Positions 2,031 to 36,980 of a DNA stretch of 39,275 nt are shown here, piece after piece (the stretch's first letter is position 1; every line of letters begins with the position of its first letter). The DNA lies in IMG/VR virus record IMGVR_UViG_3300033144_002476, positions 1 to 39,275 of that record. One strand, written 5' to 3'. The translations under genes were made by a program, and so were the position numbers. The DNA is from a virus. The notes under the pieces are model-generated. The model saw only the letters and a list, made by a program, of their open reading frames with translations, did not search any database and was not told the DNA's origin.

Positions 2031-2254
2031 TTGGTCACCTTCCCTGTAAAAGACGCACCCGCTAGTCTATCAATTTCTCTCATTAGCAAACCGCCAGATA
2101 GTATTTCAATATGCCAAGTTCTTATCATTTCCTTTATTGTATCAAGAAAGTCTTTAACATCTTCAACATCTAAAACCCCAGACTTACATCCCCAAGTAGA
2201 CTCTCCTTCTTTGTATATTTGTTGGTCTAGCTCTGCACCTTTATTGAAGTTCAT
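2027..2254 (-). CDS. hypothetical protein (75 aa)
   Basis: ORF track. Start overlaps the stop of the methyltransferase gene. Confidence 0.6.
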   Translation of the reverse strand: MNFNKGAELDQQIYKEGESTWGCKSGVLDVEDVKDFLDTIKEMIRTWHIEILSGGLLMREIDRLAGASFTGKVTK

Positions 2255-3030
2255 TCTTCACACCTCGTTTTTCCATGAAAGTACGTCGTGTTTTCAATTC
2301 GTTCTTTAGCTATATCAAAATATTTCTCATCTAACTCTATGCCTATAAAATCACGATTAATGTTTTTACAAGCTACTCCAGTTGTTCCAGAACCCATACA
2401 ATTATCTAAAACTAAATCTCCTTCATTTGTGTAAGTCTTGATTAAGTATTCAAACAATGCAACTGGCTTTTGTGTTGGGTGTAATTTTCCTTCGCTTTCG
2501 GCTGTTCTGTTATAAATTACACTTCTAGGCTTTCTCTTACCACTAATATTTATATGTTTTATTGAATCTGATTTTGTCATACCGCCATCCAATACTTCTA
2601 TGGGGTTATTCCCCACACCTTTATCATAAGGTTTCCCATCTTTGTGTTGTGGATTATAAATCATAGGATTTTTACTTCCTTGTGTAGAACCACCTAAACT
2701 AAATATAGAAATTGTTTCATGTACTTTTAATGGCTGGAAGTTTGCGTGAACAAAATTACTTCCCTTTGATTTTTCCCAAATCCAATCATATTTATAATTT
2801 TTAATACTACTTATTCTTAAGGCACTACTGAATGGTTCGCTTCCAAATAAAACTATAGCCCCATTATCCTTAATTATTCTATAATATTGTTTCCAAAGCT
2901 TATCGAATGGGATTATTGTGTCCCATCTACATCTAGTTGTTCCATATGGCAAATCACAAAGAATCATATCAATAGATTTATCTGGAATATCTTTTATTAA
3001 TTCTAAACAATCTCCTTGTAATAGTTTCAT
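2251..3030 (-). CDS. DNA methyltransferase, beta-class N6-adenine/N4-cytosine type
   Basis: N-terminal DLPY (DPPY-like catalytic motif), then HPTQKP, then C-terminal DNCMGSGTTG (FxGxG SAM motif). This is the order typical of N6_N4 methylases. Confidence 0.9.
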   Translation of the reverse strand: MKLLQGDCLELIKDIPDKSIDMILCDLPYGTTRCRWDTIIPFDKLWKQYYRIIKDNGAIVLFGSEPFSSALRISSIKNYKYDWIWEKSKGSNFVHANFQPLKVHETISIFSLGGSTQGSKNPMIYNPQHKDGKPYDKGVGNNPIEVLDGGMTKSDSIKHINISGKRKPRSVIYNRTAESEGKLHPTQKPVALFEYLIKTYTNEGDLVLDNCMGSGTTGVACKNINRDFIGIELDEKYFDIAKERIENTTYFHGKTRCEE

Positions 3031-3096: not shown

Positions 3097-4623
3097 TTAT
3101 ACACGTTTCTCCTTATTTAAATTTTGGGAAATTGCTTTAAAATTCTCTGGATACTCTTCTGCATATTTTGTCATACTTAATTCGTTATCATCAAGAATAA
3201 CTACTTTTGGTTTATCATCCGTAGATTTTAGAATTTGCGAACCGACTGCTGCAATCACATTAGTAGTAACTGCATTTCCCATTTGTTTATATCTTTGTGT
3301 GTCACTCATTTTAACCTTCTCTCCTTTTTCGTTAATTCCATATTCGTTCCAATCATCTGGGAATCCTTGTAGTCTACAACACTCGACTGGAGTGAGTCTT
3401 CTGATTGAATATCCTGCATATCCGACTTCTGGTGTTCTTCCACTTCTGAGACAGCTTCTATTATCTCTTCCGTCTCTAAGCATGACTCCATGAATATCTT
3501 GTCCGGTAACTGTAAAACTTGGTTCTCCTGGTTCCTTAAATCTTCTTCCATTTTGTCGTTTATTGATTCTATCTGATGTAAGGACTGCTCTGATTCTAGG
3601 AGTGTAATCTCCTGAGAGTTTACTTGCTCCTGCAAGTGTTGGACAGATTCCATCTGTTTCATAGATTCTTCCTTGCTGGAATTTATCTTTTTTGAAGCAT
3701 TTAATAACTGCTGGTCGTTCTTGTTTGCTTCCGAGTCCTTTGTGGTACATGGTGTCGAGGCAGTTTGATTGTTCGACTCTCCTTGCTCCTGTTGTAGCTG
3801 AGAGAAGAATCCCTTGTCCTTTGTCCTTGACAGGAGTTTCTGACATGTCGTATCTGAAAGGTAATATTTCTGGTCTACTTGTTCCTCTAAGATTTCCGAT
3901 AATGAGTACCCTCTCTCTGTTCTGGGGAACTCCGAAAAATTTGCTGTTAAGTACCATCCATTGAATTTCATACCCCAATTCATCCAACGTTTGAAGGATG
4001 ACTCTAAAAGTCTTCCCTTTGTCGTGATTGAGTAAGCCTTTGACGTTTTCGAGGAGTATAGTTTTAGGTCTTTTAACTTTAAGTATTCTCGCAACTTCAA
4101 AAAACATTGTACCTCTAATGTCTTCAAATCCTCTCCGTTTTCCAGCGATTGAGAATGCTTGGCAAGGAAATCCTCCACAGAGCATATCAAAGTCTGGTAA
4201 TTCTTCTGGTTTGATTTTGGTACAGTCTCCGTAGTTTTTAATTCCTGGGAATCTGTATCTGAGGACTTGACTTGAGTATTTATTGAACTCTGACATACCG
4301 ATGCAGCGATATATGGCATTTGACTTTGGCTTGTTGATAATGCCCTGTGTATTCCTTTGTCCGATAGTACCCTCTCCCTTGGAAGATAATTTCCCTTTGG
4401 CCTTGGTTCCTCTGGTATCACTGCTATTGTTTGCACTTTTAAATCCGAGTTCAAATCCTCCGACTCCTGTGAACATGCTGAAGTATCTGATAGTATTACT
4501 TTGTGTGGGCTTCTGTCTAGAGCGTAACAGTGTTCCTTGCTTATCAGAGGACCTGTTCTTCCCTTCCCAGTCTTGCTCGACCTTGGAAAGTGATTTAGAA
4601 TTATTGGTTCTTTCATTGCTCAT
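3097..4623 (-). CDS. dcm: DNA (cytosine-5)-methyltransferase
   Basis: Motif I FTGVGGFELG, IV GGFPCQAFS, VI ENVKGLL, VIII QNRERV, IX RRLTPVECCRLQGFP, X QMGNAV. The likely start is ATG 4623 after GGAGGAGG; the track ORF extends to 4689. Confidence 0.9.
   Translation of the reverse strand: MSNERTNNSKSLSKVEQDWEGKNRSSDKQGTLLRSRQKPTQSNTIRYFSMFTGVGGFELGFKSANNSSDTRGTKAKGKLSSKGEGTIGQRNTQGIINKPKSNAIYRCIGMSEFNKYSSQVLRYRFPGIKNYGDCTKIKPEELPDFDMLCGGFPCQAFSIAGKRRGFEDIRGTMFFEVARILKVKRPKTILLENVKGLLNHDKGKTFRVILQTLDELGYEIQWMVLNSKFFGVPQNRERVLIIGNLRGTSRPEILPFRYDMSETPVKDKGQGILLSATTGARRVEQSNCLDTMYHKGLGSKQERPAVIKCFKKDKFQQGRIYETDGICPTLAGASKLSGDYTPRIRAVLTSDRINKRQNGRRFKEPGEPSFTVTGQDIHGVMLRDGRDNRSCLRSGRTPEVGYAGYSIRRLTPVECCRLQGFPDDWNEYGINEKGEKVKMSDTQRYKQMGNAVTTNVIAAVGSQILKSTDDKPKVVILDDNELSMTKYAEEYPENFKAISQNLNKEKRV
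3306..4616 (-). CDS. 436-codon ORF embedded in the +1 frame of the C5-methyltransferase gene (candidate overlapping gene)
   Basis: ORF track. ATG 4616 overlaps the TGA of the upstream SWIM gene (ATGA). It is the only same-strand embedded ORF >=60 aa in the window. The product is Ser/Glu/Gln/Lys-rich. Confidence 0.4.
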   Translation of the reverse strand: MKEPIILNHFPRSSKTGKGRTGPLISKEHCYALDRSPHKVILSDTSACSQESEDLNSDLKVQTIAVIPEEPRPKGNYLPRERVLSDKGIHRALSTSQSQMPYIAASVCQSSINTQVKSSDTDSQELKTTETVPKSNQKNYQTLICSVEDFLAKHSQSLENGEDLKTLEVQCFLKLREYLKLKDLKLYSSKTSKAYSITTKGRLLESSFKRWMNWGMKFNGWYLTANFSEFPRTERGYSLSEILEEQVDQKYYLSDTTCQKLLSRTKDKGFFSQLQQEQGESNNQTASTPCTTKDSEANKNDQQLLNASKKINSSKEESMKQMESVQHLQEQVNSQEITLLESEQSLHQIESINDKMEEDLRNQENQVLQLPDKIFMESCLETEEIIEAVSEVEEHQKSDMQDIQSEDSLQSSVVDYKDSQMIGTNMELTKKERRLK

Positions 4624-5047
4624 GTTCCTCCTCCTTCTTCGCTTTGTGGACAGAAGATGAAGAGCACCCGTCAATCCTACTAACTTCATCGCAATACAAA
4701 GGGTTCGTCAGGGTGCTCTCTTGTGCACGTCCACCACTCTCCGATTTAATCAAAGAGTGCGTAGTTTTGATAATATCTGTCTCTTTTTCTAATATTCCAT
4801 ATTCTTTAAGAATCTCTAGACACTTGTTTATGTGTTTACATTTTCCTTCTATTTGTTCTCCACGAAATTGAAAATGTGGACAAGTGCATGACATGTTTGT
4901 TATTCCTAGTTCGTTTAGTCTGTCTATGTTTATTTCTACTTCATATGGAGCTTTTTCTTTTTTAGATCCGTGAACTATGAACTCGAATACTTCTGAGTAG
5001 TCGTCTAGTTCTTTGCTTGCTTTTATTCTAAATGGTTGTATTTTCAT
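4613..5047 (-). CDS. SWIM-type zinc-finger protein
   Basis: CTCPHFQFRGEQIEGKCKH matches CxCxnCxH. The likely start is MKIQPF at 5047 after an AAAGGAGA SD; the track ORF extends to 5149. Confidence 0.6.
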   Translation of the reverse strand: MKIQPFRIKASKELDDYSEVFEFIVHGSKKEKAPYEVEINIDRLNELGITNMSCTCPHFQFRGEQIEGKCKHINKCLEILKEYGILEKETDIIKTTHSLIKSESGGRAQESTLTNPLYCDEVSRIDGCSSSSVHKAKKEEEHEQ

Positions 5048-5187
5048 AGTATCTCCTTTATTAACAAAACAAGTAAAATACATATTATACTTATTGCTAT
5101 TTCTTGTATTGTTTGTTTTTTCATTATAATAGGGTTTATAGTCCCCCACGACTGTGACGTAAAAAAATAAATTAAATTTATGTCTAT

Positions 5188-7440: not shown

Positions 7441-7973
7441 TGGAACTTTTAACTTTCATCTCCCCCCACGCACTCCTCATCGGTTGGAAACCGAGTGAGT
7501 AGCGCTCCCCCCTCTACGGACTTTGGCTACACACGAAGGTTTTGAGTGATTTCATTGTTTTTATTAAACAATCTTTCTTCAAATCGTGGTTTTATGTAAG
7601 TCTAACATTCACTTTAGTTAGGATTAATCGCCGTTGGTCTCCAGTACTCCTACTTTCATTGATTATCGACTGGCATAGTCATGCTGATTCACAGATTATT
7701 TAACCGTTTGTCCTTAGTCTTGGACTCTACCTAATGCCTTTCGACTCGGTAAAGTGCTTGATAAGATTTCCAACCTTATCTTCGAGAGTAGGATCTCCTA
7801 ATCTGCTTCACTTACTTAATCCTCCAGCCCCGCCTCCCACTGGTATCTATCGCTACATTATCTTCGTTGTCGGAAGTCATATTGTAAGCACGGGTTAGAG
7901 CAACACCAAACACGCATTGCTAGAAATCGCTATTGAGGGTGGTTTTCATCGGACAATCGTTACTGCCTCACCT
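7441..7973 (-). ncRNA. candidate large structured non-coding RNA (class unknown; comparable in size and phage context to ROOL/GOLLD-type RNAs)
   Basis: No ORF >=60 aa in any frame. About 43% G+C by hand count against AT-rich flanks, with G>C on the minus strand. Several nested helices can be drawn. A TTTATATA box lies 22 nt upstream. Confidence 0.5.
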
Positions 7974-7995
7974 CAAATATAATAAGAAAAATAAA

Positions 7996-8003
7996 TATAT
8001 AAA
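7996..8003 (-). promoter_or_regulatory. TTTATATA box upstream of the candidate RNA
   Basis: Minus-strand TTTATATA is followed by 22 A/T-rich nt, then the GC-rich structured segment begins at 7973. It can also be read as TTTATA-N16-TATATT. Confidence 0.35.
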
Positions 8004-8017
8004 TGTTTGTATTGTGT

Positions 8018-8464
8018 TTAAATCAAAATTGCTTCAACTTCTGTATCTTCATCTTCATCAAAGATTACTTTTACGTTGTAAATCTGTTTCTTAGATTTAG
8101 AATCTTCTTCATCAAATCTTAATCTAATCTTAAAGTCTATTGTAGTTTTCTCATCTTCATATGAAACGTTATGGTCGCTGTATATTCTACTAACTTCCAT
8201 TTCATCAAAATCATATGTACCGAGTACATCTACATTGTTACCAGCTTCGTCTTCCTCGTCTTCTACAGCTTGTAAAAATTCAGCAACAGCCAAATCTAGT
8301 TGACTTACTGCTGGTACATCTACATACTCAGTAACGGAGACATTCTGGTATTCTACGATAGGATCAACTACAGGACAGTCTTGTTCGGGAGTTAGTACCA
8401 CTCCACCTAGAGCTCCAACGAGCAAACAGATTGCCATTAAGATTGTTGCTAATGTATTTTCCAT
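8018..8464 (-). CDS. membrane-anchored acidic protein (148 aa)
   Basis: N-terminal hydrophobic segment LATILMAICLLVGALGGVVL followed by a D/E-rich domain. GGAGGT SD. Confidence 0.65.
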   Translation of the reverse strand: MENTLATILMAICLLVGALGGVVLTPEQDCPVVDPIVEYQNVSVTEYVDVPAVSQLDLAVAEFLQAVEDEEDEAGNNVDVLGTYDFDEMEVSRIYSDHNVSYEDEKTTIDFKIRLRFDEEDSKSKKQIYNVKVIFDEDEDTEVEAILI

Positions 8465-8495
8465 TATGTTTTACCTCCTATTATTTAGTTAAGTA

Positions 8496-8675
8496 TTAAT
8501 TTTTCTTAACTGGTTTAACTGGTTTAACTGGTTCTACTGGTTTGTTCATCTCTTCTACTAACAAAGCAATAGTTTTCTGCTTCATCTGAGATAATTGATT
8601 TGCCTGTGCTTGAAGTGATTCAAGTTGCAACTGGATTTCACCAATTTTCGCCTTTAATTCGATTTGTTTATCCAT
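8496..8675 (-). CDS. coiled-coil mini-protein with (K/E)PV repeats (59 aa, below track cutoff)
   Basis: Hand translation MDKQIELKAKIGEIQLQLESLQAQ...KPVEPVKPVKPVKKN. No SD. A TTTAAATA box lies 22 nt upstream. Confidence 0.45.
   Translation of the reverse strand: MDKQIELKAKIGEIQLQLESLQAQANQLSQMKQKTIALLVEEMNKPVEPVKPVKPVKKN
8508..8543. repeat. four tandem 9-nt units (aactggttt-like)
   Basis: aactggttt aactggttt aactggttc tactggttt, encoding the PV(K/E) repeats of 8496..8675. Confidence 0.8.
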
Positions 8676-9551: not shown

Positions 9552-12500
9552 TTAAATTGCTTCACCCAATGAATTTGCTGTATATTCTACAAATTGCCCT
9601 CTCATATGTACTGCATCAGAAATTGTATCTTGAACATCTCCGCTTAATCTTGTAACTTTCCAAAAAAAAGCTTTATCTGTTGCACTTGGTAAATCAATTC
9701 CGGGAACTTCTGCGACAATTAAACCATCACTTGTTGCCGACGCTGTGCTTACTATTGTTAAGGTTTCCTGTGCTCCGGCAGTTACATCTTCGTTAGGACT
9801 TATCCATAAATATTCTAATTGCCATTTACAATTTCCCGGACTAATTCCGTTAGCGTGCCACCCAATATTTAAAGTTATTGGGATAGTTATATCTATGTCG
9901 GGGGGGATTAAGAAAGTCCCACTTACACTTTCTTGATTAGCTTCTATTGCGTCTGAAAATTCCCAACAACCAGTTAATCCATCCTCAACAAATGTTGCAG
10001 GTTTTGCTCCTGGGGCTCTTATTCCATTAGCACCAATATAAATTTTCTTTTTTACCCTCGCTGTTCCATGCAAATTTATCTCTCCGTCTGATTTTATTTC
10101 TGTATAATTTACTGCTCCGCCAATATTAGAAGCACTAAAACTTGCACTTCCATCAGTAAAACTAACCCAAGCTACACCATTATCTCCAAATCCGGGAGTT
10201 TGAGCAGAACCTTTCCAAACAAATTTTCCAACTTCATTAATAAAATTATATCCACTTCCAAAACCAATGTGACTCCACCGAGCAGAACCACCAACTCTAT
10301 TTGGGGGGCTATCAACATTTCCTTTTAAATATAAATGCTTTTGAGATAATTGGTCATCATTTACAACTAAAGCACCACCAATTTCATTATCTCCTTTGAT
10401 TTCTCCTGTAACTGTTAAATCTGTTGATGTTCTAATATCTCCATTAACATCTAATTTATAAGCAGGATTATCAATACCAATTCCAACATTTCCACCCTCT
10501 TCCCACACCATAACATTAGCCACACCGCTTTCAGTTAAACTTAATCCTGTTCCAGTAATAGCACCAAAATGCCAATCAGGATTAACATTATCATCTGCAA
10601 AATATAAAACATCTCCTATTTGAACTCTTCCAGCAACATCTAATTTATGAGTCCCTATTGGGCTTGTTCCTATTCCAATTCTATCAAATTGTCCTGTTCC
10701 GGTAACATTCAAATCTCCCAAAACATCTAAACGATTACTAACATCAATAATCCCATTAGTCCCATCAGAACTTATCTGTAAGTCTGTGTTAGTCGTTCCC
10801 CATTTAGAGATAATATTATCCCCCCCCATAAAATTATCTGTTTGAGAATATAATCCCCAGTTATTTGTTCCTTTTGTTTGTCCAGCGTCATAAAAAGCAT
10901 ATTGATTTGCTATTGCATAATTTCCACCAGTTCGTGCATCATCTGCATAAAAAGCATATCCGTTTCCAAAGATATTTGCAGTTCCTGTCCCAGGACCACC
11001 TGCACCTACTGCTTTTATTCTACTAAAATATCCAAATATATTTTGTCCGTAGTGTGTTAAATCATCATCATCTTCTAATTCTAAACCAACTTCTGCAAAT
11101 CCTCCAAGTAAATTAGAGGCAGCAGCACCAGACCCAACATTTGCAGGAGGTGTAAATGTCGCAGAAAACTTAACTCCATAACCAAAAGCTAATGAAGTTG
11201 AAGTATTAGAAATAAAATCATTTTGAATACCTGCTCCAACATTCGTTGTATCTGTTGTAAAAGGATTATTAATCCCAACACCCTCTGTAATACTTCCCCC
11301 ATTAAAAGCACCTTGTCCTGCTGTTATATCTCCAGCCCCAAAATCCCAGTCTCCTGTCATGCTCCCGTCGGTGATTGTGTTAGTGCCGAGGTCTAAAGTT
11401 GTTGCATTAATTGTTGTTGCAGAAAAATCATGACTCCCCAAATCAACATCAGTCGTCGCACCAGTATAAGGAACCAAATCAGAAATTGCTGTGCTTGAAA
11501 ATTCTAAAGCAGTTCCACCAGTATTTTCTTGAAGTAATCTATTAGTTGAAATAGTATAAGCACTAGGTGTATCTGTTAATCCTAAAAATGTTGTAATACC
11601 GCTTGCTCCTGCGCCTGCTCCTGCTGTTGTATTTGGTAAAAAACCTCTTAAATCTTGAGTTTCATATAGACTCCAAACTCCACCAGTATTGACAAAAGTA
11701 AATCTTGCAATCAAAAAGCCTACTCCTTGAAAGGCTTTAGGGATTGTATAAACTGAACTTGCCCCTGCATCTACTACTGCTTGTTCTGGGAAGTTTTTAT
11801 TATAAGTACCGATTGGCATATTAGCCATTAAATGTGATGGTTCACCACTTTTATTTGCCGTTCCCCATACAACTACACTAAAACTTGTATTAAGTAATGG
11901 GTCTCCAACTGCATCGGTAGTAATATCTGATAAATCTAACACTTCTGTGTAGGATCCGGCAAAATCATTAACCACAATAACATGGTCGCCTATTGTATCT
12001 CCAGGAGTTGCACTTGGAATTACTTCTTCTACGGTAATAATAAAATTAGGGTCAGACCAAATAGTACTTACCACAGTATATAATCCTTCATTACCATTAA
12101 CTCCGTGAACATTAATTGTTTTACCTTCTGGGAAAACGTTTGTTAAATCTCCATCTCCACTAATTGTGAAAGTTTTATTTCCTTGATTAACCGCGTCTAT
12201 AGTATATTGAGTCATATCCTGCAATGGAAAAGGATGTCTATGCATTTGATAAATAACACCAGAAGTATTTTTTATCCAAACTTCGTCTGCTGGTCCAATG
12301 TCTACTGAACCTTCACAGCCAGAATCCCACTGTGCTTCGAATTGTCTTAACTTTTCTCCTATATGAGATAAATGTCCTTGGTTAGAAGTAGTATCCTGAA
12401 TCTCATCATTCCAATTCTGATTTCTTAATGCGCCCTCTGTTTCTGTTGTTGCAGCAGTTTGTAAGAAAACTTGCGCAACTTTAATATGTTCAAAGGTTGT

Positions 12501-13337
12501 GGGAAATGCAGAAGTACTTACTGTTAATTCTTTTGTACTCTTTGGAATATAAATATAATTAGTTTGTGGTGTATCATCAGTACCTTGAGTTAATTCAATA
12601 GTAGCTGGAGGACTTGTATCAAACATTGTAAATCCATCAGAAAACATCATTGTTAAATCTGGATGTCCATTACTTGGTTCAAGTGTTCCTGTAATAGTTG
12701 TACCATCACTTGAGGTTCTAAAATCGAAAGATTCTCTAATTACACCATTCCAAAAATTAACAAATGTATCTTCTAATTCACCTTTAACAGAAACTACAAT
12801 TTCTCCATCTAATTCACCTACAATAGAAACTCCGCCTATTTGAATTGGATAATTTGGAAACTCTGGTTTGTCTGCAGTGAATGCTCCAGCTGTATCTGGG
12901 CTAACATAAACATTATCACCAACAATAAAATCAGATGTATCAATTCCCCGAACATTTCCTCTTTGTGTTGCAATCCCAGAACCCCCTGTTGGAATATTCA
13001 TAGTTGCTACCCAAATTGCTCTGCTTATCCCATCAGGAGTGTTAGCTTGAGCTAATGCAACATTTGGGATACCTAATGTTGCTCCTGCAATAGGATGAAT
13101 TACTTGACCGTTTAAAATATCTTCTCCAGTTGTATTATAAACCAAAAACCAGTCTTCAAAGCCTACTTGTAAATTAGGACCACGACCAGTACAAATATCA
13201 AGTGTTGTTTCTTTATTGTTCCAAGCAACATGACCAGCTTCTGTGCATTCCTCTGTTAGTCCTGTACGAAAATTAAGTTGTCTAAATCTATTTGATTTTA
13301 GTCTATTTAGTATGTCATCGTATTCTGTTTTAACCAT
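9552..13337 (-). CDS. large tail fibre / receptor-binding (adhesin-like) protein, 1261 aa
   Basis: Very long Gly/Thr/Asn-rich ORF with repetitive beta-rich segments, in the structural gene cluster. TAATG coupling to the upstream gene. Confidence 0.6.
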   Translation of the reverse strand: MVKTEYDDILNRLKSNRFRQLNFRTGLTEECTEAGHVAWNNKETTLDICTGRGPNLQVGFEDWFLVYNTTGEDILNGQVIHPIAGATLGIPNVALAQANTPDGISRAIWVATMNIPTGGSGIATQRGNVRGIDTSDFIVGDNVYVSPDTAGAFTADKPEFPNYPIQIGGVSIVGELDGEIVVSVKGELEDTFVNFWNGVIRESFDFRTSSDGTTITGTLEPSNGHPDLTMMFSDGFTMFDTSPPATIELTQGTDDTPQTNYIYIPKSTKELTVSTSAFPTTFEHIKVAQVFLQTAATTETEGALRNQNWNDEIQDTTSNQGHLSHIGEKLRQFEAQWDSGCEGSVDIGPADEVWIKNTSGVIYQMHRHPFPLQDMTQYTIDAVNQGNKTFTISGDGDLTNVFPEGKTINVHGVNGNEGLYTVVSTIWSDPNFIITVEEVIPSATPGDTIGDHVIVVNDFAGSYTEVLDLSDITTDAVGDPLLNTSFSVVVWGTANKSGEPSHLMANMPIGTYNKNFPEQAVVDAGASSVYTIPKAFQGVGFLIARFTFVNTGGVWSLYETQDLRGFLPNTTAGAGAGASGITTFLGLTDTPSAYTISTNRLLQENTGGTALEFSSTAISDLVPYTGATTDVDLGSHDFSATTINATTLDLGTNTITDGSMTGDWDFGAGDITAGQGAFNGGSITEGVGINNPFTTDTTNVGAGIQNDFISNTSTSLAFGYGVKFSATFTPPANVGSGAAASNLLGGFAEVGLELEDDDDLTHYGQNIFGYFSRIKAVGAGGPGTGTANIFGNGYAFYADDARTGGNYAIANQYAFYDAGQTKGTNNWGLYSQTDNFMGGDNIISKWGTTNTDLQISSDGTNGIIDVSNRLDVLGDLNVTGTGQFDRIGIGTSPIGTHKLDVAGRVQIGDVLYFADDNVNPDWHFGAITGTGLSLTESGVANVMVWEEGGNVGIGIDNPAYKLDVNGDIRTSTDLTVTGEIKGDNEIGGALVVNDDQLSQKHLYLKGNVDSPPNRVGGSARWSHIGFGSGYNFINEVGKFVWKGSAQTPGFGDNGVAWVSFTDGSASFSASNIGGAVNYTEIKSDGEINLHGTARVKKKIYIGANGIRAPGAKPATFVEDGLTGCWEFSDAIEANQESVSGTFLIPPDIDITIPITLNIGWHANGISPGNCKWQLEYLWISPNEDVTAGAQETLTIVSTASATSDGLIVAEVPGIDLPSATDKAFFWKVTRLSGDVQDTISDAVHMRGQFVEYTANSLGEAI

Positions 13338-18681: not shown

Positions 18682-20550
18682 TCAATGAATATTACTAAAT
18701 TTAACATGGTTCACCTCCGCAGTTGATGTGTTGTTTTCTGTAAGCCTAAAACGTAAGTCTTGACCTGTATTAGAAAATGTGTGAGTAGTATTATTAGTTG
18801 CTGTTTCCCAATTTGAATTATCAGCTGTTACTTCAATCAAGACTGAACCAGACTCAATGTCTATGTCTACGTCTATTGAAGTTATAACTCCGTTTCGTAG
18901 GTCAATTGATTTACTAAGTGCAACTTGACCAGAAGTAAAGTCAAGACTGCCACTTGCCCATGTAGCTGTACCTGAATCGTCTTCAAAGTCTTGGTCGATA
19001 AAGTCTTCAGTATAGATGTTTTCAAATTGTTCAACGAAGTTATCTATCATAGAATTATCATAGTCTTCATCCCATTCTGAGTTATCCCATGTTTCTCTAT
19101 CCCAAAGTGCGTCTGTTGAAGTATCTCGAGTTTGTAGTTTTCTATAACGTGGACTTATTTGAACTTCATTATAAAAATCTCTTAACTCTAAAATTAAATC
19201 TTGGTTTTTAAGGCTTAATTGTTCTTCTATTCGTTTTAGTCTTTCTTCTACATTAATTTGCCAATCTGCTAATCTAATTGCTTCATCGCCTACTGTTATT
19301 TCTTGATTAGAACCTGGGTATTTGATAACTTGCTTTGTTATTATTAATTCTTTATTTATATTAGGCGTGCTTACTGAATCTACTATCTTAACTCTGTCTC
19401 CTACATTTAAACTAATCGTTGAGCTGCTTCTAACTAATAAATCACCAATCAAAAAAGGAACAGAAAATTTAGATAGTAATTCAGCTGTACGAGCTTCTGC
19501 GTCTGCTACTGTTTGAATATCTGTTAGGGTTATTTGTTTTTCCCATGTTCCGTATGTGTCTATTGAATCTTGACTTATTTGATGTATTGGGCTAGGTGCT
19601 AACCAAGTGTAGTTTACTATTGCGTTCTCGGTTGGGAAACTTGTCCCTTCGGTTGGGATTATTTTTTTGTTTTCTCGGTCTACATAATAATAATGTCCAG
19701 TTGTAGAGTCTTTTGTACCACCTATTTTAACTGTTACTGGCGGAGTACTTGAATCTAAAATTAATTCAACGTTTTCAGGGGTTTTGTCAAGTAAAATTCC
19801 ATCTGTGTCGAAGTTAGCAGTAGTCCCGATTGTTCCGTATTCCGTTCCGTTTGGAAGTCTTATTTGTGTCTGACTTACTGCTCCGTCTACTCTTAAGTCG
19901 TTTACCATACGAGAAGTGTCATTAGTCCATTTTGGAACTCCTAGAATTTGAGTTCCTACTGTTAAAGTAAGAGTACTATCAGAATAGCCTTTTGGTTCAA
20001 AGTGTACTGTGTCATTTACTGGGTCATAAAATATTTGATATTCTACTGCCTTAGCGAGTGCGGTTAGTCTTTCCCAGATGTCTGTGTGGGTACATCTAAA
20101 TTCTCCTATTGTTTTTCCTTCTATTGTTCCTGTGGCTACTACGCTTGCAGTTAAGCCTCCGTGTGTTTCAATTAAGTCTTTTGCTATATCACTGATAACT
20201 CCTGCTTGTGGTCCGGATGATTCATATACTGTATTAACGTTTTTTCTTACTAAGTCCCACATTTTATCGTAACAAGTCAAATCTACTCGTCCGCCGTCTG
20301 GGCTTATTTCGGCTATAAAACCAGAGAAAACTTTTTTATCTGTGCTAGTAATAAAACCTGTCCATACTTGAATTACTTGACCTACTTTTAAACTAACTAA
20401 ATCTTCTACCGATGAGAGTAATGTCATTGCTAATTGGCTTATAACTACGTCAGATGTTCGTTCATATTCCCAACTTAATACTTTTTTCTCAGTAGAACTA
20501 TCGTCACGTACGGTTACTCCATCAATAACAACCTTGCAAAGTAACGGCAT
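18682..20550 (-). CDS. tail hub / tail-associated protein (622 aa)
   Basis: Position downstream of the tape measure. Size and N-terminal region are consistent with hub (gpD/Tal-like) proteins. GGAGGA SD. Confidence 0.45.
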   Translation of the reverse strand: MPLLCKVVIDGVTVRDDSSTEKKVLSWEYERTSDVVISQLAMTLLSSVEDLVSLKVGQVIQVWTGFITSTDKKVFSGFIAEISPDGGRVDLTCYDKMWDLVRKNVNTVYESSGPQAGVISDIAKDLIETHGGLTASVVATGTIEGKTIGEFRCTHTDIWERLTALAKAVEYQIFYDPVNDTVHFEPKGYSDSTLTLTVGTQILGVPKWTNDTSRMVNDLRVDGAVSQTQIRLPNGTEYGTIGTTANFDTDGILLDKTPENVELILDSSTPPVTVKIGGTKDSTTGHYYYVDRENKKIIPTEGTSFPTENAIVNYTWLAPSPIHQISQDSIDTYGTWEKQITLTDIQTVADAEARTAELLSKFSVPFLIGDLLVRSSSTISLNVGDRVKIVDSVSTPNINKELIITKQVIKYPGSNQEITVGDEAIRLADWQINVEERLKRIEEQLSLKNQDLILELRDFYNEVQISPRYRKLQTRDTSTDALWDRETWDNSEWDEDYDNSMIDNFVEQFENIYTEDFIDQDFEDDSGTATWASGSLDFTSGQVALSKSIDLRNGVITSIDVDIDIESGSVLIEVTADNSNWETATNNTTHTFSNTGQDLRFRLTENNTSTAEVNHVKFSNIH

Positions 20551-34250: not shown

Positions 34251-34482
34251 TTAATAACCTCTTGCTTAATTCATTCATTAATTTTAATTTCTTGTTCTCA
34301 TGTAAATTATTAAACTGATTATCTCTTACTATTTCAAGATTTGAACGATTTATTACTGGGAAATTATTTAATGATACTTTTGGTGTATATCTTGATTCTA
34401 TTGGGTTACGCTCTTTGGAACAAGTTACCCCGTACTTATCCCATAACTTTGCATTATGATTTACATTAATTATAGTTTTCAT
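34243..34482 (-). CDS. hypothetical protein (79 aa)
   Basis: ORF track. ATGA overlap with the terminase stop. Confidence 0.55.
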   Translation of the reverse strand: MKTIINVNHNAKLWDKYGVTCSKERNPIESRYTPKVSLNNFPVINRSNLEIVRDNQFNNLHENKKLKLMNELSKRLLNG

Positions 34483-36980
34483 CCGAAGTTCATTACCACC
34501 TTGTTGTTATTCATTAATTCGAGTGCATAACCCATAGCGATAGGAATATCTGGATGTATTCCGGCTTCTACTAATTTTCCATCACTTAAAGCAAATGAAG
34601 TACATTCAGCTAATATTCTGTCTGCTCGTAGTTTGTCTTGTTCGGTTTTATATGGAATAATAAACTGTTTGTTCTCAAAAGCTGTGCCTAGTCGCATTAT
34701 TAGATTAATTTTACCTACTGTGTGACGTTTATTAGTCCAATCGTAATCTGGTTTAAGTCTTGCTGCTGGATCACTTGCGCTTGTCCAAAAAAGTGTTATA
34801 GGTAAATTCCATTGATTTATGTCTTTTGAAATAGCTTTAATTGAGTTTTCTTCTAGTCCTATCAAATCATAAGTATTAAGTGGATGGAGTGTGTCACGGA
34901 TATACTTCATTTGTTCATCTACACTCCACCCCTTTTCTTTTTGGCTCCCTAGCATATAAAAAAAGTCATCTTTACTTCCTAATCCAAAGAAAGCTGATTC
35001 GTCTGCTGTTACTCTATCACTGAAAGCAAAGTCTACTCCTAAAGTTTTCATTTCAAATTGCATCTCCTTAATATCTTCCGCACTTAAATCTTCTCTAAAA
35101 CATTGAGTTACCCATTCTCGTTTTATCAGACTAGATGTATTATCAATTGGATTATTAAGATATTCCTGTTGAAATGCCACAGAGCCTATCTCCTTTTTGA
35201 TTTTAGTTAGAATATCTTTTGTAAATCTGTCTTTCCAGAGTATATTATTCATGTTTTCATCACAGGCTTGAAATATTTTACCTTTACATTGTTTTATTTT
35301 AACCGTTAAAAGTGAATTTGGATGAAGTATAGTTCCAATCATTTTATATCTACCTTTAATATCAAGGCTAGGAATAATTACTTTATTTAACTTGTTTGAA
35401 TCTTTTACACGTAAATCTGGGTTAAGTACTCTTTGATCGTCTTCTACGTCATCTGCCACGATAAGCGTTGGTCTCATATTATTATATTTGAATCCTCTTA
35501 GATTTTTCTCAAAACTTACTGCTTCTACTCTACATCCACCTACATCGAAACAATCTTCACGGTCTTTTCCGAATTCATCTCTACTCTTACTTGGTGTCAA
35601 ATCTCCATAAACGAATCTTAACATCTCATTGTTTTTAAACTCATTTCTAATTGGATCAATGAACTGTACTGTTTTACTATGATTCTGACTTACATAGACA
35701 ATATACTTTTCAAGGTTATTCACAATGCAAAAGATTAGATATATTATACCTGTTACTGAAGAATTATGTGTTACCATATAATCATTTGTTATGAATGTAC
35801 CATCTCCTTCAACAGAGATACATCTTCCTATTGCTTCTTTCTCAAATGTAATATCTGTAATTGAAGATTTTGTTTTAATACTTCCGCGCCATATACCCCT
35901 TTTTCTTTTTAGTCTAACAGGGATTATTTCACTTGGGACTCTGCATGTAAGTACATAAGAATGTTTATATTCAGAATCTTTATCAAATCTTGTTAGTCTT
36001 TCTCCTACTGTGACTGTTCCTCCAAGTGATCTAATAAGTGCCACATAATCATCCTTTAAATTTTTCTTAGATGTAGCCAATCCAAATCTTTTACCACCCT
36101 TTTGCACATACCCATCAGAATCAACTAACCCTTGAAGCATGGACTCTCTTTGTTCTATTGATGCCGTCATGTACTCTGTTGGAATATGTTTATTGCCAAT
36201 TAGGTAAGATTGTCTTAATTCTTTATGCAAACCAAGAACACCATAACCATACTCAGCTTTATGTTTCGTAATCTTATAATCAAAATATTCAAATATCTCG
36301 GGATCACCTGTTGTTATTTGCCCAGATGATGAAGTTCCATCAGCTATCCAACAACCCAAAACATAAGGGTCTATGGGTAAAACTTTCTCATTAAAATCTA
36401 TTGGTTTACATGACGGTAAGAAATAGCGATATTCCGTAAACTCTTTATTACTTCGTTTATCAATTCTTTTTGACTTATAATTTTTCATTATATCTTGAGT
36501 ATATTTTGTAACTAATTTGTCTCCCGTATTTGATGGGCATTGAACCTTCCATAAATGTCCATCATTACACAACACGCTACGACCATCTCTTGTTTTAAAC
36601 CTAAATAATGGGACTTTTTTTATTGGATGTAATTGTATAACTTTTTTCTTCTTTCCATTCATACCATACACATAATCTCCGACTTTGAGTTCACTTAACT
36701 TTATCCATCCAGAAGGAGTTAAAATGTCAGAATCAAGACTCAGAAGCTTGGCGTGACCCCTTGGTGCTGCTAGTGCTCCATTTCCTGTGGAGAATAAGAA
36801 TTCGTATATTTCATGGTGAAAATCTGGTATTTTGTTTGTTACTGTCTCAGGAAACATTACTTGACTGAATACTGTTATGTTTTCTTTGAAACTGAAGATA
36901 TATCTAAGTACTTGTTTAAGTTCTTCTTGATCCTTAGTTGTTTCTATAAGGTTAACTACCTCTTCTTTTGTGATTTGCAT
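34479..36980 (-). CDS. terL: terminase large subunit, interrupted by an intein
   Basis: Extein: APRGHAK|...|SSVTG (split Walker A), LIVADDVEDD (Walker B) and a C-terminal nuclease-like region (GVDFAFS...). 833 aa including a 328-aa insert. Confidence 0.9.
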   Translation of the reverse strand: MQITKEEVVNLIETTKDQEELKQVLRYIFSFKENITVFSQVMFPETVTNKIPDFHHEIYEFLFSTGNGALAAPRGHAKLLSLDSDILTPSGWIKLSELKVGDYVYGMNGKKKKVIQLHPIKKVPLFRFKTRDGRSVLCNDGHLWKVQCPSNTGDKLVTKYTQDIMKNYKSKRIDKRSNKEFTEYRYFLPSCKPIDFNEKVLPIDPYVLGCWIADGTSSSGQITTGDPEIFEYFDYKITKHKAEYGYGVLGLHKELRQSYLIGNKHIPTEYMTASIEQRESMLQGLVDSDGYVQKGGKRFGLATSKKNLKDDYVALIRSLGGTVTVGERLTRFDKDSEYKHSYVLTCRVPSEIIPVRLKRKRGIWRGSIKTKSSITDITFEKEAIGRCISVEGDGTFITNDYMVTHNSSVTGIIYLIFCIVNNLEKYIVYVSQNHSKTVQFIDPIRNEFKNNEMLRFVYGDLTPSKSRDEFGKDREDCFDVGGCRVEAVSFEKNLRGFKYNNMRPTLIVADDVEDDQRVLNPDLRVKDSNKLNKVIIPSLDIKGRYKMIGTILHPNSLLTVKIKQCKGKIFQACDENMNNILWKDRFTKDILTKIKKEIGSVAFQQEYLNNPIDNTSSLIKREWVTQCFREDLSAEDIKEMQFEMKTLGVDFAFSDRVTADESAFFGLGSKDDFFYMLGSQKEKGWSVDEQMKYIRDTLHPLNTYDLIGLEENSIKAISKDINQWNLPITLFWTSASDPAARLKPDYDWTNKRHTVGKINLIMRLGTAFENKQFIIPYKTEQDKLRADRILAECTSFALSDGKLVEAGIHPDIPIAMGYALELMNNNKVVMNFG
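35763..36746 (-). mobile_element. intein with double-motif LAGLIDADG homing endonuclease; class-3 hallmarks
   Basis: Residues 79-406. Block B NDGHLW, LAGLIDADG motifs LGCWIADGT and LQGLVDSDG, block F RCISVEGDGTFITN, block G MVTHN followed by Ser+1. No Cys/Ser/Thr at position 1. Confidence 0.75.

What the first reader, a model, noticed from the sequence alone, without database searches (positions are those of the whole stretch)
3306..4616. 436-codon ORF in the +1 frame inside the C5-methyltransferase gene: candidate long overlapping gene
Frame A (3097..4623) has every canonical C5-MTase motif (FxGxG, PCQ, ENV, QxRxR, GNAV), so it is clearly real. A second frame on the same strand, shifted by +1, stays open for 436 codons across almost the whole gene. 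In the ORF track this is the only same-strand embedded ORF >=60 aa in the genome. The 1261-, 833-, 622- and 547-codon genes have none, which serves as an internal control for AT-rich DNA where alternative-frame stops are frequent. Its ATG (4616) overlaps the TGA of the upstream SWIM gene as ATGA, the coupling signature used at more than ten other junctions here. It lies 7 nt after the dcm ATG and shares the GGAGGAGG SD. Across the overlap, frame A uses mostly CTC/CTT, GTC/GTT and ATC/ATT, whereas the rest of the genome favours TTA/GTA/ATA. The few NTA codons present (GTA-CTT, GTA-CTC, ATA-TTA-CCT, CTA-CAA) are each followed by a pyrimidine, which avoids +1 stops. The frame closes at ATG-AGT, after which TTA and GTA codons reappear. 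The frame-B product is Ser/Glu/Gln/Lys-rich. One segment (SLSEILEEQVDQKYYLS) resembles a stretch I recall from methyltransferase-associated proteins. The alternative explanation is a horizontally acquired gene whose foreign codon usage happens to deplete +1 stops.
Basis: partly seen in the sequence, partly recalled or inferred. Interest (0 to 1): 0.8.

Follow-up and report, generated by a model that had tools for sequence, protein, structure and literature searches.

The report
Second gene hidden inside methyltransferase gene
A DNA cytosine methyltransferase gene of an archaeal tailed virus carries a second 436-codon reading frame, and comparison with hundreds of related viral genes shows that selection keeps this frame open and partly conserved, so it is probably a real overlapping gene whose product has never been studied.

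Summary
Frame A (3097-4623, minus strand) is a complete C5 DNA methyltransferase (MTase). Frame B (+1; 3306-4616) is open for 436 codons and is the only same-strand embedded ORF of 60 aa or more in the window.

It is not chance or foreign codon usage. Synonymous shuffles never reproduce it. Genome codon usage predicts about 29 +1 stops where none occur. The avoidance of stop-prone codons ends exactly at the frame-B stop.

Frame B is open in nearly all homologues, down to 35-45% identity, and in 233 phage records. Its ATG sits 7 nt after the A ATG and overlaps the upstream gene's TGA; nine loci share this layout.

Just after motif VIII, frame B (SLSDILE..VD.KYFLSEK..LL) is more conserved than frame A, and it fixes rare synonymous codons in A. 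Canonical MTases carry this element in frame; the A chains of this family lack it.

Precedents exist. Phage MM1 annotates the same ORF as a "beta subunit", PHROG 16143 collects such ORFs, and the M.EcoHK31I beta chain lies in another frame inside alpha.

Verdict: a selected, probably translated overlapping gene, most likely a partner of the MTase. Protein-level constraint covers only about 35-70 codons. No expression data were available and the function is only inferred.

The parts
3097..4623 (-). Frame A: complete C5 DNA cytosine methyltransferase (508 aa), with motifs I, IV (PCQ), VI (ENV), VIII (QNRER), IX and X (GNAV) all in this frame
   Evidence: Pfam PF00145 E=5e-78. Matches M.HhaI in PDB at E=3e-48. 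AlphaFold model gives pLDDT above 90 for the catalytic core and motifs IX-X.
3306..4616 (-). Frame B: 436-codon ATG-initiated ORF in the +1 frame, entirely inside the frame-A gene (stop TGA at 3306-3308)
   Evidence: for the ORF. for the shuffles. for conservation in homologues. PHROG 16143 match at E=4e-27.
4627..4634 (-). Tandem Shine-Dalgarno sequence GGAGGAGG. Its end lies 3 nt from the A ATG and 10 nt from the B ATG
   Evidence: Read directly from the sequence. The same GGAGGAGG-N3-ATG-N4-ATGA layout occurs in L012, L014, L017, L020, L021 and L035, with a weaker SD in L033 and L063.
4613..4623 (-). Dual start site ATGAGCAATGA: A ATG at 4623-4621, B ATG at 4616-4614, and the stop TGA of the upstream SWIM-like gene at 4615-4613, overlapping the B ATG
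   Evidence: The B ATG is created by the conserved N-terminal Asn/His-Glu codons of frame A (AAT GAA), as seen in P0002-P0014. Frame-B ORFs in public data begin MKSDTS.CSQES.
4613..5149 (-). Upstream SWIM zinc-finger-like gene, whose termination codon is coupled to the B start
   Evidence: Pfam SWIM at E=0.005, below the curated cut-off. PADLOC SWIM_XIII at E=2.5e-5.
4494..4604 (-). B residues 5-41 (IILNHFPRSSKTGKGRTGPLISKEHCYALDRSPHKVI): a module homologous to the TRD segment that directly precedes motif IX, in frame, in related MTases. In frame A the same DNA encodes a low-complexity N-terminal extension
   Evidence: phmmer E about 1e-9 to 1e-10 (in a database of 184 sequences) against P0120, P0091, P0092, P0069 and P0111. 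Frame-A residues 1-40 have pLDDT 36-54.
4312..4431 (-). Frame-A codons 65-104: a low-complexity insertion after motif I that canonical MTases lack. It is a passenger segment in A that keeps both frames open
   Evidence: Alignment to M.HhaI and to homologues. pLDDT 47-59. In homologues L093, P0124, P0125 and P0127 this position reads as TRD-like sequence in frame B.
3912..4184 (-). B residues about 145-235: the +1 reading of motifs IV-VIII (…SVEDFLAKHS…LKLKDL…SSKTSKAYS…RWMNWGM..NGWYLTANFSEFPR). Its sequence is only weakly to moderately constrained, but it is always open
   Evidence: for the translations. Codon identity 0.44-0.60 against a 0.41 baseline. Fixed codons GGG216, CTT224 and AGC226. 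AlphaFold pLDDT below 55.
3819..3911 (-). B residues 236-266 (GYSLSEILEEQVDQKYYLSDTTCQKLLSRTK): the strongly conserved frame-B element. It overlies frame-A residues 238-269 (RVLIIGNLRGTSRPEILPFRYD…)
   Evidence: B identity 0.66 against A 0.50 at positions +6..+21 after the Q of QNRER, and 0.28 against 0.17 at +22..+33. B residues L, L, Y, L and S are invariant. Codon identity 0.89. pLDDT 86-96. Matches positions 214-244 of PADLOC profile PDLC03734. Aligns to the in-frame Dcm segment in 3lx6.
3309..3818 (-). B residues 267-436: Glu/Gln/Ser-rich acidic tail (net charge -19 over residues 271-436). It is the +1 reading of the TRD and motif IX of frame A
   Evidence: Composition. Open in 8 clade members with unrelated TRDs, each ending at the conserved K-M-S (ATG AGT) about 10-12 codons before GNAV. 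No synonymous constraint beyond stop avoidance. Predicted long helix at residues 303-367.
2251..3030 (-). Downstream neighbour: a second DNA methyltransferase of the N6/N4 type (context only)
   Evidence: Pfam PF01555 E=1.4e-33.

Best explanation
Frame B is a genuine overlapping protein-coding gene maintained by selection. It is not a by-product of codon usage.

Proposed mechanism:
1. Ribosomes reach a dual start site (GGAGGAGG-N3-ATG-N4-ATGA).
2. Some initiate at the first ATG and make the single-chain C5 methyltransferase (A).
3. Others start 7 nt downstream at the second ATG, aided by termination-reinitiation at the overlapping TGA of the upstream SWIM-like gene, and make B.

B has four parts:
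- a short N-terminal module related to the recognition-loop end of a target-recognition domain (TRD);
- a long, poorly constrained and probably disordered stretch overprinted on motifs I-VIII;
- a strongly conserved helical element of about 35-70 residues (W.NWGM..NG..LTA..SE.P....SLSDILE..VD.KYFLSEK....LL);
- in this clade, an acidic tail.

The conserved element corresponds to the segment that canonical C5 methyltransferases carry in frame right after motif VIII, at the hinge into the small domain. The A chains of this family lack that segment. The most likely role of B is therefore as a partner (a beta-like chain) of the methyltransferase, supplying or modulating that element in trans, by analogy with M.EcoHK31I.

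What is shown: the ORF, its conservation, the conserved start, the synonymous constraint, and B being more conserved than A in one segment. What is inferred: that B is translated, the coupling mechanism, and the partner function.
For: Openness beyond chance in the window.

Conservation of openness: about 60 homologues, each significant against its own shuffles. tblastn finds the same +1 ORF in 233 phage records and 50 plasmids from Firmicutes, Actinobacteria and archaea.

Openness is not forced by the frame-A protein sequence. L071 has a nearly identical core protein but 13 +1 stops in 191 codons.

Synonymous constraint: codon identity 0.89 against 0.41, and rare codons are fixed.

Frame B is more conserved than frame A after motif VIII. 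This includes a hydrophobic pattern kept with different residues where A is unalignable, which points to selection on the protein rather than on the nucleotides.

Conserved starts: the dual ATG with ATGA coupling occurs in 9 loci, and an ATGAATG variant in 3 more. In Firmicute phages an internal ATG lies 21-26 codons before PCQ in all 9 loci that gave output, with AGGAG or AGGAGG 6-12 nt upstream in 8 of them. Many metagenomic homologues have an ATG or GTG at the same place.

Complementary distribution of the element: PADLOC profile PDLC03734 has the catalytic core at positions 27-167 and the DILE element at 214-244 in a single frame. None of 184 A-frame proteins of this family has the element in frame, except the outgroup L010/L011, where frame B is closed.

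AlphaFold gives pLDDT 86-96 for the element.

Precedents: the M.EcoHK31I beta chain is encoded entirely in another frame within alpha and is needed for activity (PMC2836561). Phage MM1 orf14 is annotated as a beta subunit embedded in orf13.

Public gene callers sometimes prefer B over an intact A (L092, L093).
Against: No transcript, ribosome-profiling or peptide evidence was available.

Outside the ~35-70 residue element, B is predicted to be disordered (pLDDT below 55 with a 150-sequence alignment). Its synonymous constraint there is weak (0.44-0.60).

The C-terminal 170 codons show no constraint beyond stop avoidance.

B-like sequence was found only as alternative-frame ORFs of methyltransferase genes, never as a free-standing gene or in another domain context.

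Frame A carries all ten motifs, so it does not visibly need a second chain. From my own recollection, not checked here, purified SPR-type enzymes of this family are active as single polypeptides.

The tail-only profile finds nothing in PDB. The Dcm match rests partly on motifs IX-X, which were contributed by chimeric database sequences in the profile.
Confidence: 0.62

Rival explanations
1. Relic or spare frame. The family switches between single-chain genes and frame-switched (alpha/beta-like) genes through TRD cassette exchange or indels. The frame-B element is used only when the TRD and motifs IX-X are in phase with B. In the window, B is an unused remnant kept by recurrent recombination with such forms.
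For: Three of about 57 loci (L070, L078, L098) and 13 of the 150 best B-family database proteins have the DILE element, TRD and motifs IX-X in one frame, while frame A stops 18-50 codons after motif VIII. L098 differs from Brochothrix phage BtpYZU03 by a replaced 5' part of the TRD, joined in B phase, and its B ATG has GAGGAGG 6 nt upstream.
Against: 51 of about 57 diverse loci are single-chain, yet they keep the B element with invariant residues and fixed codons. Intermittent use would not hold that level of constraint. L078 looks like a plain indel inside a TRD element, so some of the split forms are probably mutants or sequencing errors. The window clade has also extended B by 170 codons and moved its start to a conserved coupled ATG, which a relic would not do.
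Confidence: 0.15
2. Programmed +1 ribosomal frameshifting. Translation starts in A and shifts into B near motif VIII. The result is a truncated isoform that ends with the B element, so B is not initiated independently.
For: Constraint on B is strongest just downstream of motif VIII. Arg238 is AGG, which differs from the usual Arg codon, in half of the homologues.
Against: No conserved slippery sequence, homopolymer or in-frame stop is present. The codons before the element vary freely (GAA AGA GTG, GAG AGG GTA, GAG CGG ATA). To include the conserved SLSDILE, the shift would have to occur before the RVFIIG strand, which would delete part of the catalytic fold. This model also fails to explain 100-240 codons of upstream openness or the conserved B start codons with SD.
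Confidence: 0.05
3. A nucleotide-level element. The conserved ~60-90 nt at the boundary between core and TRD would be an RNA structure, an internal regulatory site, or a recombination site for TRD exchange. The frame-B ORF would be incidental.
For: The most conserved nucleotides lie exactly at the junction between the conserved core and the variable TRD.
Against: The variation is protein-like in frame B. Invariant L, L, Y, L and S are separated by freely varying positions. D/E, I/V and F/Y swaps occur. A hydrophobic pair 8-9 residues after YFLS is kept with different codons. This model does not explain stop avoidance over hundreds of codons or the conserved start codons.
Confidence: 0.06
4. 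Artefact of foreign codon usage. The gene was acquired horizontally and its codon usage happens to deplete +1 stops.
For: The gene's G+C content is 39% against 34% for the window. It uses CTC/CTT, ATC and GTC more than its neighbours do.
Against: Shuffles that keep the gene's own codon usage still expect about 10 stops. The codon shift ends inside the gene, at the frame-B stop. The same frame is open in homologues from very different hosts and G+C contents of 0.35-0.50. Individual synonymous codons are fixed.
Confidence: 0.02

Closest known systems
M.EcoHK31I (Escherichia coli HK31), a heterodimeric C5 methyltransferase with alpha and beta chains
   Same: A second polypeptide is encoded entirely within the methyltransferase gene in a different reading frame. 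It is translated from its own internal start codons and associates with the large chain (PMC2836561, citing Lee et al. 1995; PMC3404938).
   Different: There, alpha lacks motif IX, beta supplies it, and both chains are required. Here frame A has all ten motifs, and B carries no motif IX, only the post-motif-VIII element. No enterobacterial hit was found among plasmids.
M.AquI alpha/beta (Agmenellum quadruplicatum)
   Same: A C5 methyltransferase naturally made of two chains, split in the variable region (PMC3404938).
   Different: In M.AquI, alpha carries motifs I-VIII and beta carries IX-X. From my own recollection, the two ORFs are successive and overlap only briefly. In the window, B is fully embedded and lacks IX-X. 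A few relatives (L070, L098) do resemble an AquI-like split, but with an overlap of about 135 codons.
Streptococcus pneumoniae phage MM1 orf13/orf14 and PHROG 16143
   Same: This is the same embedded +1 ORF. MM1 orf14 (141 aa, record coordinates 7631-8056) lies inside orf13 (7480-8637). The two are labelled C5 methyltransferase beta and alpha subunits. Window B matches PHROG 16143 at E=4e-27.
   Different: The MM1 version is the minimal form: it starts about 24 codons before PCQ and ends about 31 codons after QNRER. The window version is three times longer, starts beside the A start, and adds a TRD-like module and an acidic tail. I found no experimental or comparative study of the MM1 ORF.
E. 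coli dcm-vsr overlap (from general knowledge, not tested here)
   Same: A gene overlapping a C5 methyltransferase gene on the same strand in the +1 frame, with coupled translation.
   Different: vsr overlaps only the last few codons of dcm and encodes an unrelated repair endonuclease. It is not an embedded ORF.

Membership tests
C5 DNA cytosine methyltransferase (Pfam PF00145) - frame A | Motifs I (FxGxG), IV (PCQ), VI (ENV), VIII (QxRxR), IX and X (GNAV) in one chain | tested here: met
   PF00145 E=5e-78 over profile positions 2-324 of 324. All motifs were located in frame A.
Embedded +1 ORF family of phage-type C5-MTase genes (PHROG 16143 / MM1 orf14) - frame B | Sequence match to the family profile | tested here: met
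   phrog_16143 E=4.4e-27, B residues 136-261 aligned to profile positions 10-135 of 139. The exhaustive search found 1239 cluster representatives at E<=1e-3.
Embedded +1 ORF family of phage-type C5-MTase genes (PHROG 16143 / MM1 orf14) - frame B | Located in the +1 frame over motifs IV-VIII and ending after the SLSDILE..KYFLS element | tested here: met
   In the window the ORF continues 170 codons further than in most members.
M.EcoHK31I-type two-chain C5-MTase | Second chain encoded entirely within the first gene in another reading frame | tested here: met
   3306-4616 lies inside 3097-4623 with frame offset +1.
M.EcoHK31I-type two-chain C5-MTase | The large chain lacks conserved motif IX, which the small chain supplies | tested here: not met
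   Frame A contains IRRLTPVECCRLQGFPD (motif IX) and frame B has no motif IX. What A lacks and B has is a different element, the post-motif-VIII DILE..KYYLS segment.
M.EcoHK31I-type two-chain C5-MTase | Both chains are required for methylation, and they associate physically | not testable with these tools
   Needs expression of A with and without B, followed by a methylation or pull-down assay.
M.EcoHK31I-type two-chain C5-MTase | Sequence homology of the small chain to the EcoHK31I beta chain | not tested
   The EcoHK31I sequence is not in any accessible collection. No enterobacterial plasmid hit was found with the B core.
M.AquI-type split C5-MTase | Alpha carries motifs I-VIII and beta carries motifs IX-X | tested here: not met
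   Motifs IX-X lie in frame A, with no stop between VIII and X. Relatives L070 and L098 do meet this feature, in B phase.
Functional same-strand overlapping gene (operational criteria) | ORF longer than expected given the protein and codon usage of the host frame | tested here: met
Functional same-strand overlapping gene (operational criteria) | ORF and start codon conserved in divergent homologues | tested here: met
Functional same-strand overlapping gene (operational criteria) | Reduced synonymous variation in the host frame, and purifying selection on the second frame | tested here: met
   for B residues about 205-270. It is not met for B residues 271-436. No tree-aware model was run.
Functional same-strand overlapping gene (operational criteria) | Direct evidence of translation | not testable with these tools
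   No ribosome-profiling or proteomic data were available.

The most novel reading that the evidence does not exclude
A large clade of viral and plasmid C5 DNA methyltransferases may in fact be two-polypeptide systems. The clade includes enzymes of Streptococcus, Lactococcus, Clostridium, Brochothrix and Bacillus elements, some annotated as SPRI-like, and enzymes of archaeal tailed viruses. In this reading a +1-frame chain, translated from its own start, supplies or regulates the hinge element that the main chain has lost. The archaeal-virus clade would then have expanded this into a 436-codon, fully dual-coding gene. From my own knowledge of the literature, that would be among the longest same-strand overlaps in any prokaryotic virus.
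Probability: 0.3. Interest if true: 0.85.

Novelty: new variant of a known kind. Interest (0 to 1): 0.74.

Why it matters
Long same-strand overlapping genes are considered very rare outside small viruses, and gene callers forbid them, so they stay invisible. Here one embedded frame is kept open, and partly conserved as protein, in hundreds of methyltransferase genes from bacterial phages, plasmids and an archaeal virus.

If it is translated, three things follow:
- A widely annotated single-gene enzyme family has an unrecognised second product, which could affect how phage orphan methyltransferases evade restriction.
- It would be a natural example of two canonical segments of one protein fold encoded on the same nucleotides in two frames (RVFIIG…VFPI in A and SLSDILE…KYFLS in B).
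- Over a thousand "hypothetical protein" clusters in public databases would be explained.

It is directly testable in tractable systems such as the Streptococcus pneumoniae MM1 lysogen and Brochothrix or Lactococcus phages.

Tried and rejected
- Database searches for frame B. Pfam, NCBIfam and a PDB sequence search gave nothing meaningful. A profile of the B tail alone found nothing in PDB.
- AlphaFold on frame B. With a 150-sequence alignment the mean pLDDT was 57.5 and there was no folded domain outside residues 235-270. I therefore dropped the idea that the +1 reading of motifs IV-VIII is a globular domain, and I did not run a fold search on so poor a model.
- Free-standing family. I suspected from memory that B belongs to a free-standing protein family. 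The exhaustive search and a profile search returned only alternative-frame ORFs and frame-chimeric proteins of methyltransferase genes, so I rejected this idea.
- Natural alpha/beta split genes. I considered that database proteins joining B to the TRD and motifs IX-X prove natural split genes. Inspection showed that L078 is best explained by an indel inside a TRD element, so these are treated as ambiguous.
- Programmed frameshifting. I looked for slippery sites in the nucleotide alignment upstream of the conserved element and found none conserved.
- Literature. No paper on an overlapping ORF in C5 methyltransferases turned up in three keyword searches. The MM1 genome paper and the EcoHK31I paper are not held.
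- C-terminal extension. A within-region synonymous shuffle was not significant. The signal there is codon choice, which only resampling with genome-wide usage reveals.
Full report
**What is in the window.**
The feature lies on the minus strand. Frame A (3097-4623, 508 aa) is a complete C5 DNA cytosine methyltransferase (MTase). It matches Pfam PF00145 at E=5e-78 over the whole profile and M.HhaI at E=3e-48. Frame B (3306-4616) starts with ATG, is shifted by +1 and is open for 436 codons. After its stop, the +1 frame closes seven more times in the last ~70 codons of A. B is the only same-strand embedded ORF of 60 aa or more in the window.

The window is a complete 39,275-bp contig. NCBI labels it as a Candidatus Heimdallarchaeaceae metagenome-assembled genome. 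It encodes a portal protein, an HK97-type capsid protein, a prohead protease and a tail tube protein, so it is a tailed virus or provirus.

**Is the open frame more than chance?**
Three controls say yes.
- Shuffling synonymous codons within the overlap 20,000 times gives a mean of 10.6 +1 stops. The longest open run was 335 codons and none reached 437.
- Resampling frame A with the window's own codon usage expects 29 stops, with a minimum of 17 in 3000 samples.
- Stop-prone NTA/NTG codons make up 20% of the Leu/Ile/Val codons inside the overlap, and 3% in codons 262-438. They make up 43% in the last 70 codons of the same gene and 45-81% in the 31 other genes, whose +1 runs never exceed 67 codons.

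A horizontally acquired codon usage would not change at the frame-B stop codon.

**Homologues.**
I fetched 91 loci from viral and metagenome collections, using frame A only as the query. Nine close homologues (55-62% identity) have +1 runs covering nearly the whole gene, although their target-recognition domains (TRDs) are unrelated. About 50 more distant homologues, down to 35-45% identity, keep the +1 frame open for 140-280 codons, from near motifs II-III to 27-80 codons beyond motif VIII. Each is significant against its own shuffles.

The openness is not imposed by the frame-A protein. L071 has an almost identical catalytic core but 13 +1 stops in 191 codons. A tblastn search with the frame-B core finds the same frame inside the C5-MTase genes of 233 phage records (Streptococcus, Clostridium, Lactococcus, Brochothrix and others) and of 50 plasmids.

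**Selection on frame B.**
Among representatives below 50% identity, the fraction of identical codons at identical amino acids is:
- 0.41 in motifs IX and X, where B is closed;
- 0.44-0.52 over motifs II-VIII;
- 0.89 in the 19 codons after motif VIII.

Individual synonymous codons are fixed against the family's own usage: Gly216 GGG 100% (background 14%), Leu224 CTT 97% (16%), Ser226 AGC 90% (15%), Leu244 CTT 100% (16%), Pro254 CCT 100% (27%). At Leu224, four of the six Leu codons would create a frame-B stop.

With an ungapped anchor at QNRER, frame B is more conserved than frame A at positions +6 to +21 (identity 0.66 against 0.50). The same holds at +22 to +33 (0.28 against 0.17; BLOSUM 1.08 against 0.13). 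In that second stretch A is already in its unalignable TRD, while B keeps a hydrophobic pair using different residues. That pattern indicates selection on a protein, not on an RNA or DNA motif.

The conserved frame-B sequence is W.NWGM..NG..LTA..SE.P....SLSDILE..VD.KYFLSEK....LL.

**Start sites.**
In the window, GGAGGAGG is followed after 3 nt by the A ATG. Four nucleotides later comes the B ATG, which overlaps the TGA of the upstream SWIM-like gene. The same ATG-N4-ATGA layout, with an upstream ORF ending on that TGA, occurs in eight further loci. Three more have the variant ATGAATG. The B ATG is created by a conserved Asn/His-Glu pair at the extreme N-terminus of A.

In the 9 Firmicute phage loci that gave output, frame B starts at an internal ATG 21-26 codons before PCQ. 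AGGAG or AGGAGG lies 6-12 nt upstream in 8 of them, although the frame-A amino acids at that spot vary. Many metagenomic homologues have an ATG or GTG at the same place.

**What frame B resembles.**
B has no Pfam, NCBIfam or PDB sequence match, but it matches PHROG 16143 at E=4e-27. An exhaustive search finds 1239 cluster representatives. As far as I could inspect them, they are all alternative-frame ORFs or frame chimeras of MTase genes.

The conserved element corresponds to a segment that canonical C5-MTases carry in frame after motif VIII. Window A residues 105-243 match PADLOC profile PDLC03734 at positions 27-167, and window B residues 236-266 match the same profile at positions 214-244. 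The B-family profile also aligns the element to VTLAQLLDPMVEAKYILT of the Dcm structure 3lx6.

None of 184 frame-A proteins of this family has the element in frame. Only the outgroup L010/L011 does, and there frame B is closed.

In the window clade, B residues 5-41 are also homologous to the TRD segment that precedes motif IX, in frame, in related enzymes. The same DNA read in frame A gives a low-complexity N-terminal extension. That extension and the insertion after motif I are predicted to be disordered.

AlphaFold on frame B is confident only for residues 235-270 (pLDDT 86-96). The +1 reading of motifs IV-VIII is not predicted to fold.

**Frame-switched relatives.**
In three loci (L070, L078, L098) and in 13 of the 150 best B-family proteins, the B element runs in frame into a TRD and motifs IX-X, while frame A stops soon after motif VIII. 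These could be natural two-chain enzymes. However, L078 looks like a simple indel inside a TRD element, so I treat them as ambiguous.

**Comparison with what is known.**
- M.EcoHK31I is an experimentally established C5-MTase whose beta chain is encoded entirely in another reading frame inside the alpha gene. It is translated from internal starts and binds alpha (PMC2836561; PMC3404938).
- M.AquI is split into alpha (motifs I-VIII) and beta (motifs IX-X) chains (PMC3404938).
- Phage MM1 already annotates the very ORF studied here as a "C5 methyltransferase beta subunit" embedded in the "alpha subunit".

The window differs from all three. Frame A has all ten motifs. Frame B carries no motif IX but a different element. 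The ORF is three times longer than the MM1 form. I found no study recognising this frame as a conserved feature of the family.

**Verdict.**
The most likely mechanism is independent, coupled initiation at the second ATG, producing a partner protein of the methyltransferase.

The points that remain uncertain are these:
- translation itself is inferred, not observed;
- only about 35-70 codons show protein-level constraint;
- the role of the acidic 170-residue tail (net charge -19) is unknown;
- the enzyme may not need B for catalysis.

Noticed in passing
window 34479-36980 (-): This 833-aa ORF has a homing-endonuclease/LAGLIDADG domain at residues 266-342 (Pfam Hom_end E=2.4e-10). That suggests an intein or endonuclease insertion in a large virion or packaging gene. 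The rest of the protein has no Pfam match.
   Followed up: partly
window 2251-3030 (-) and 3097-4623 (-): Two DNA methyltransferases of different classes (N6/N4-type PF01555 and C5-type) sit side by side, downstream of a SWIM-like gene. No restriction endonuclease was noticed nearby, which would fit viral orphan methyltransferases, but the flanks were not searched for one.
   Followed up: partly
window 4492-4623 and 4312-4431 (-); homologues P0011, P0012, P0014, L093: A low-complexity frame-A peptide module (…SLSKVEQDWEG.NR..D.QGTLL.SRQ…) recurs in homologues either before motif I or inserted after it, sometimes twice. Read in frame B, the same DNA gives TRD-like sequence (GGTGPL…CYALDRSPH.V, CPTLTEPHHNT). 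Pieces of TRD DNA seem to have been moved into the 5' part of the gene out of frame with A.
   Followed up: partly
loci L047, L054, L071, L073, L076: In a related subgroup of C5-MTase genes, frame A ends 17 codons after motif VIII (RVFILGIREDIVDKKEVI*) and the +1 frame is closed. In L054 and L076, motifs IX-X lie further downstream in another frame. These may be M.AquI-like split enzymes.
   Followed up: no
loci L092 (2352-3452) and L093 (389-1249): Public metagenome gene calls chose frame B instead of the intact methyltransferase frame. Alternative-frame products of this gene family populate protein databases: 1239 cluster representatives at 50% identity, mostly labelled hypothetical protein.
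   Followed up: yes
locus L098 versus L096 (Brochothrix phage BtpYZU03): The two genes are 87-94% identical in their flanks, but the 5' part of the TRD is replaced (about 300 nt against about 140 nt), and this changes the reading phase of everything downstream. It looks like TRD cassette exchange that switches a single-chain gene into an alpha/beta-like pair.
   Followed up: partly
whole window: 31 of the 32 non-overlapping ORFs of 120 aa or more are on the minus strand, and no tRNA genes were found. The 1261-aa ORF (9552-13337) and the 622-aa ORF (18682-20550) have no Pfam match.
   Followed up: no
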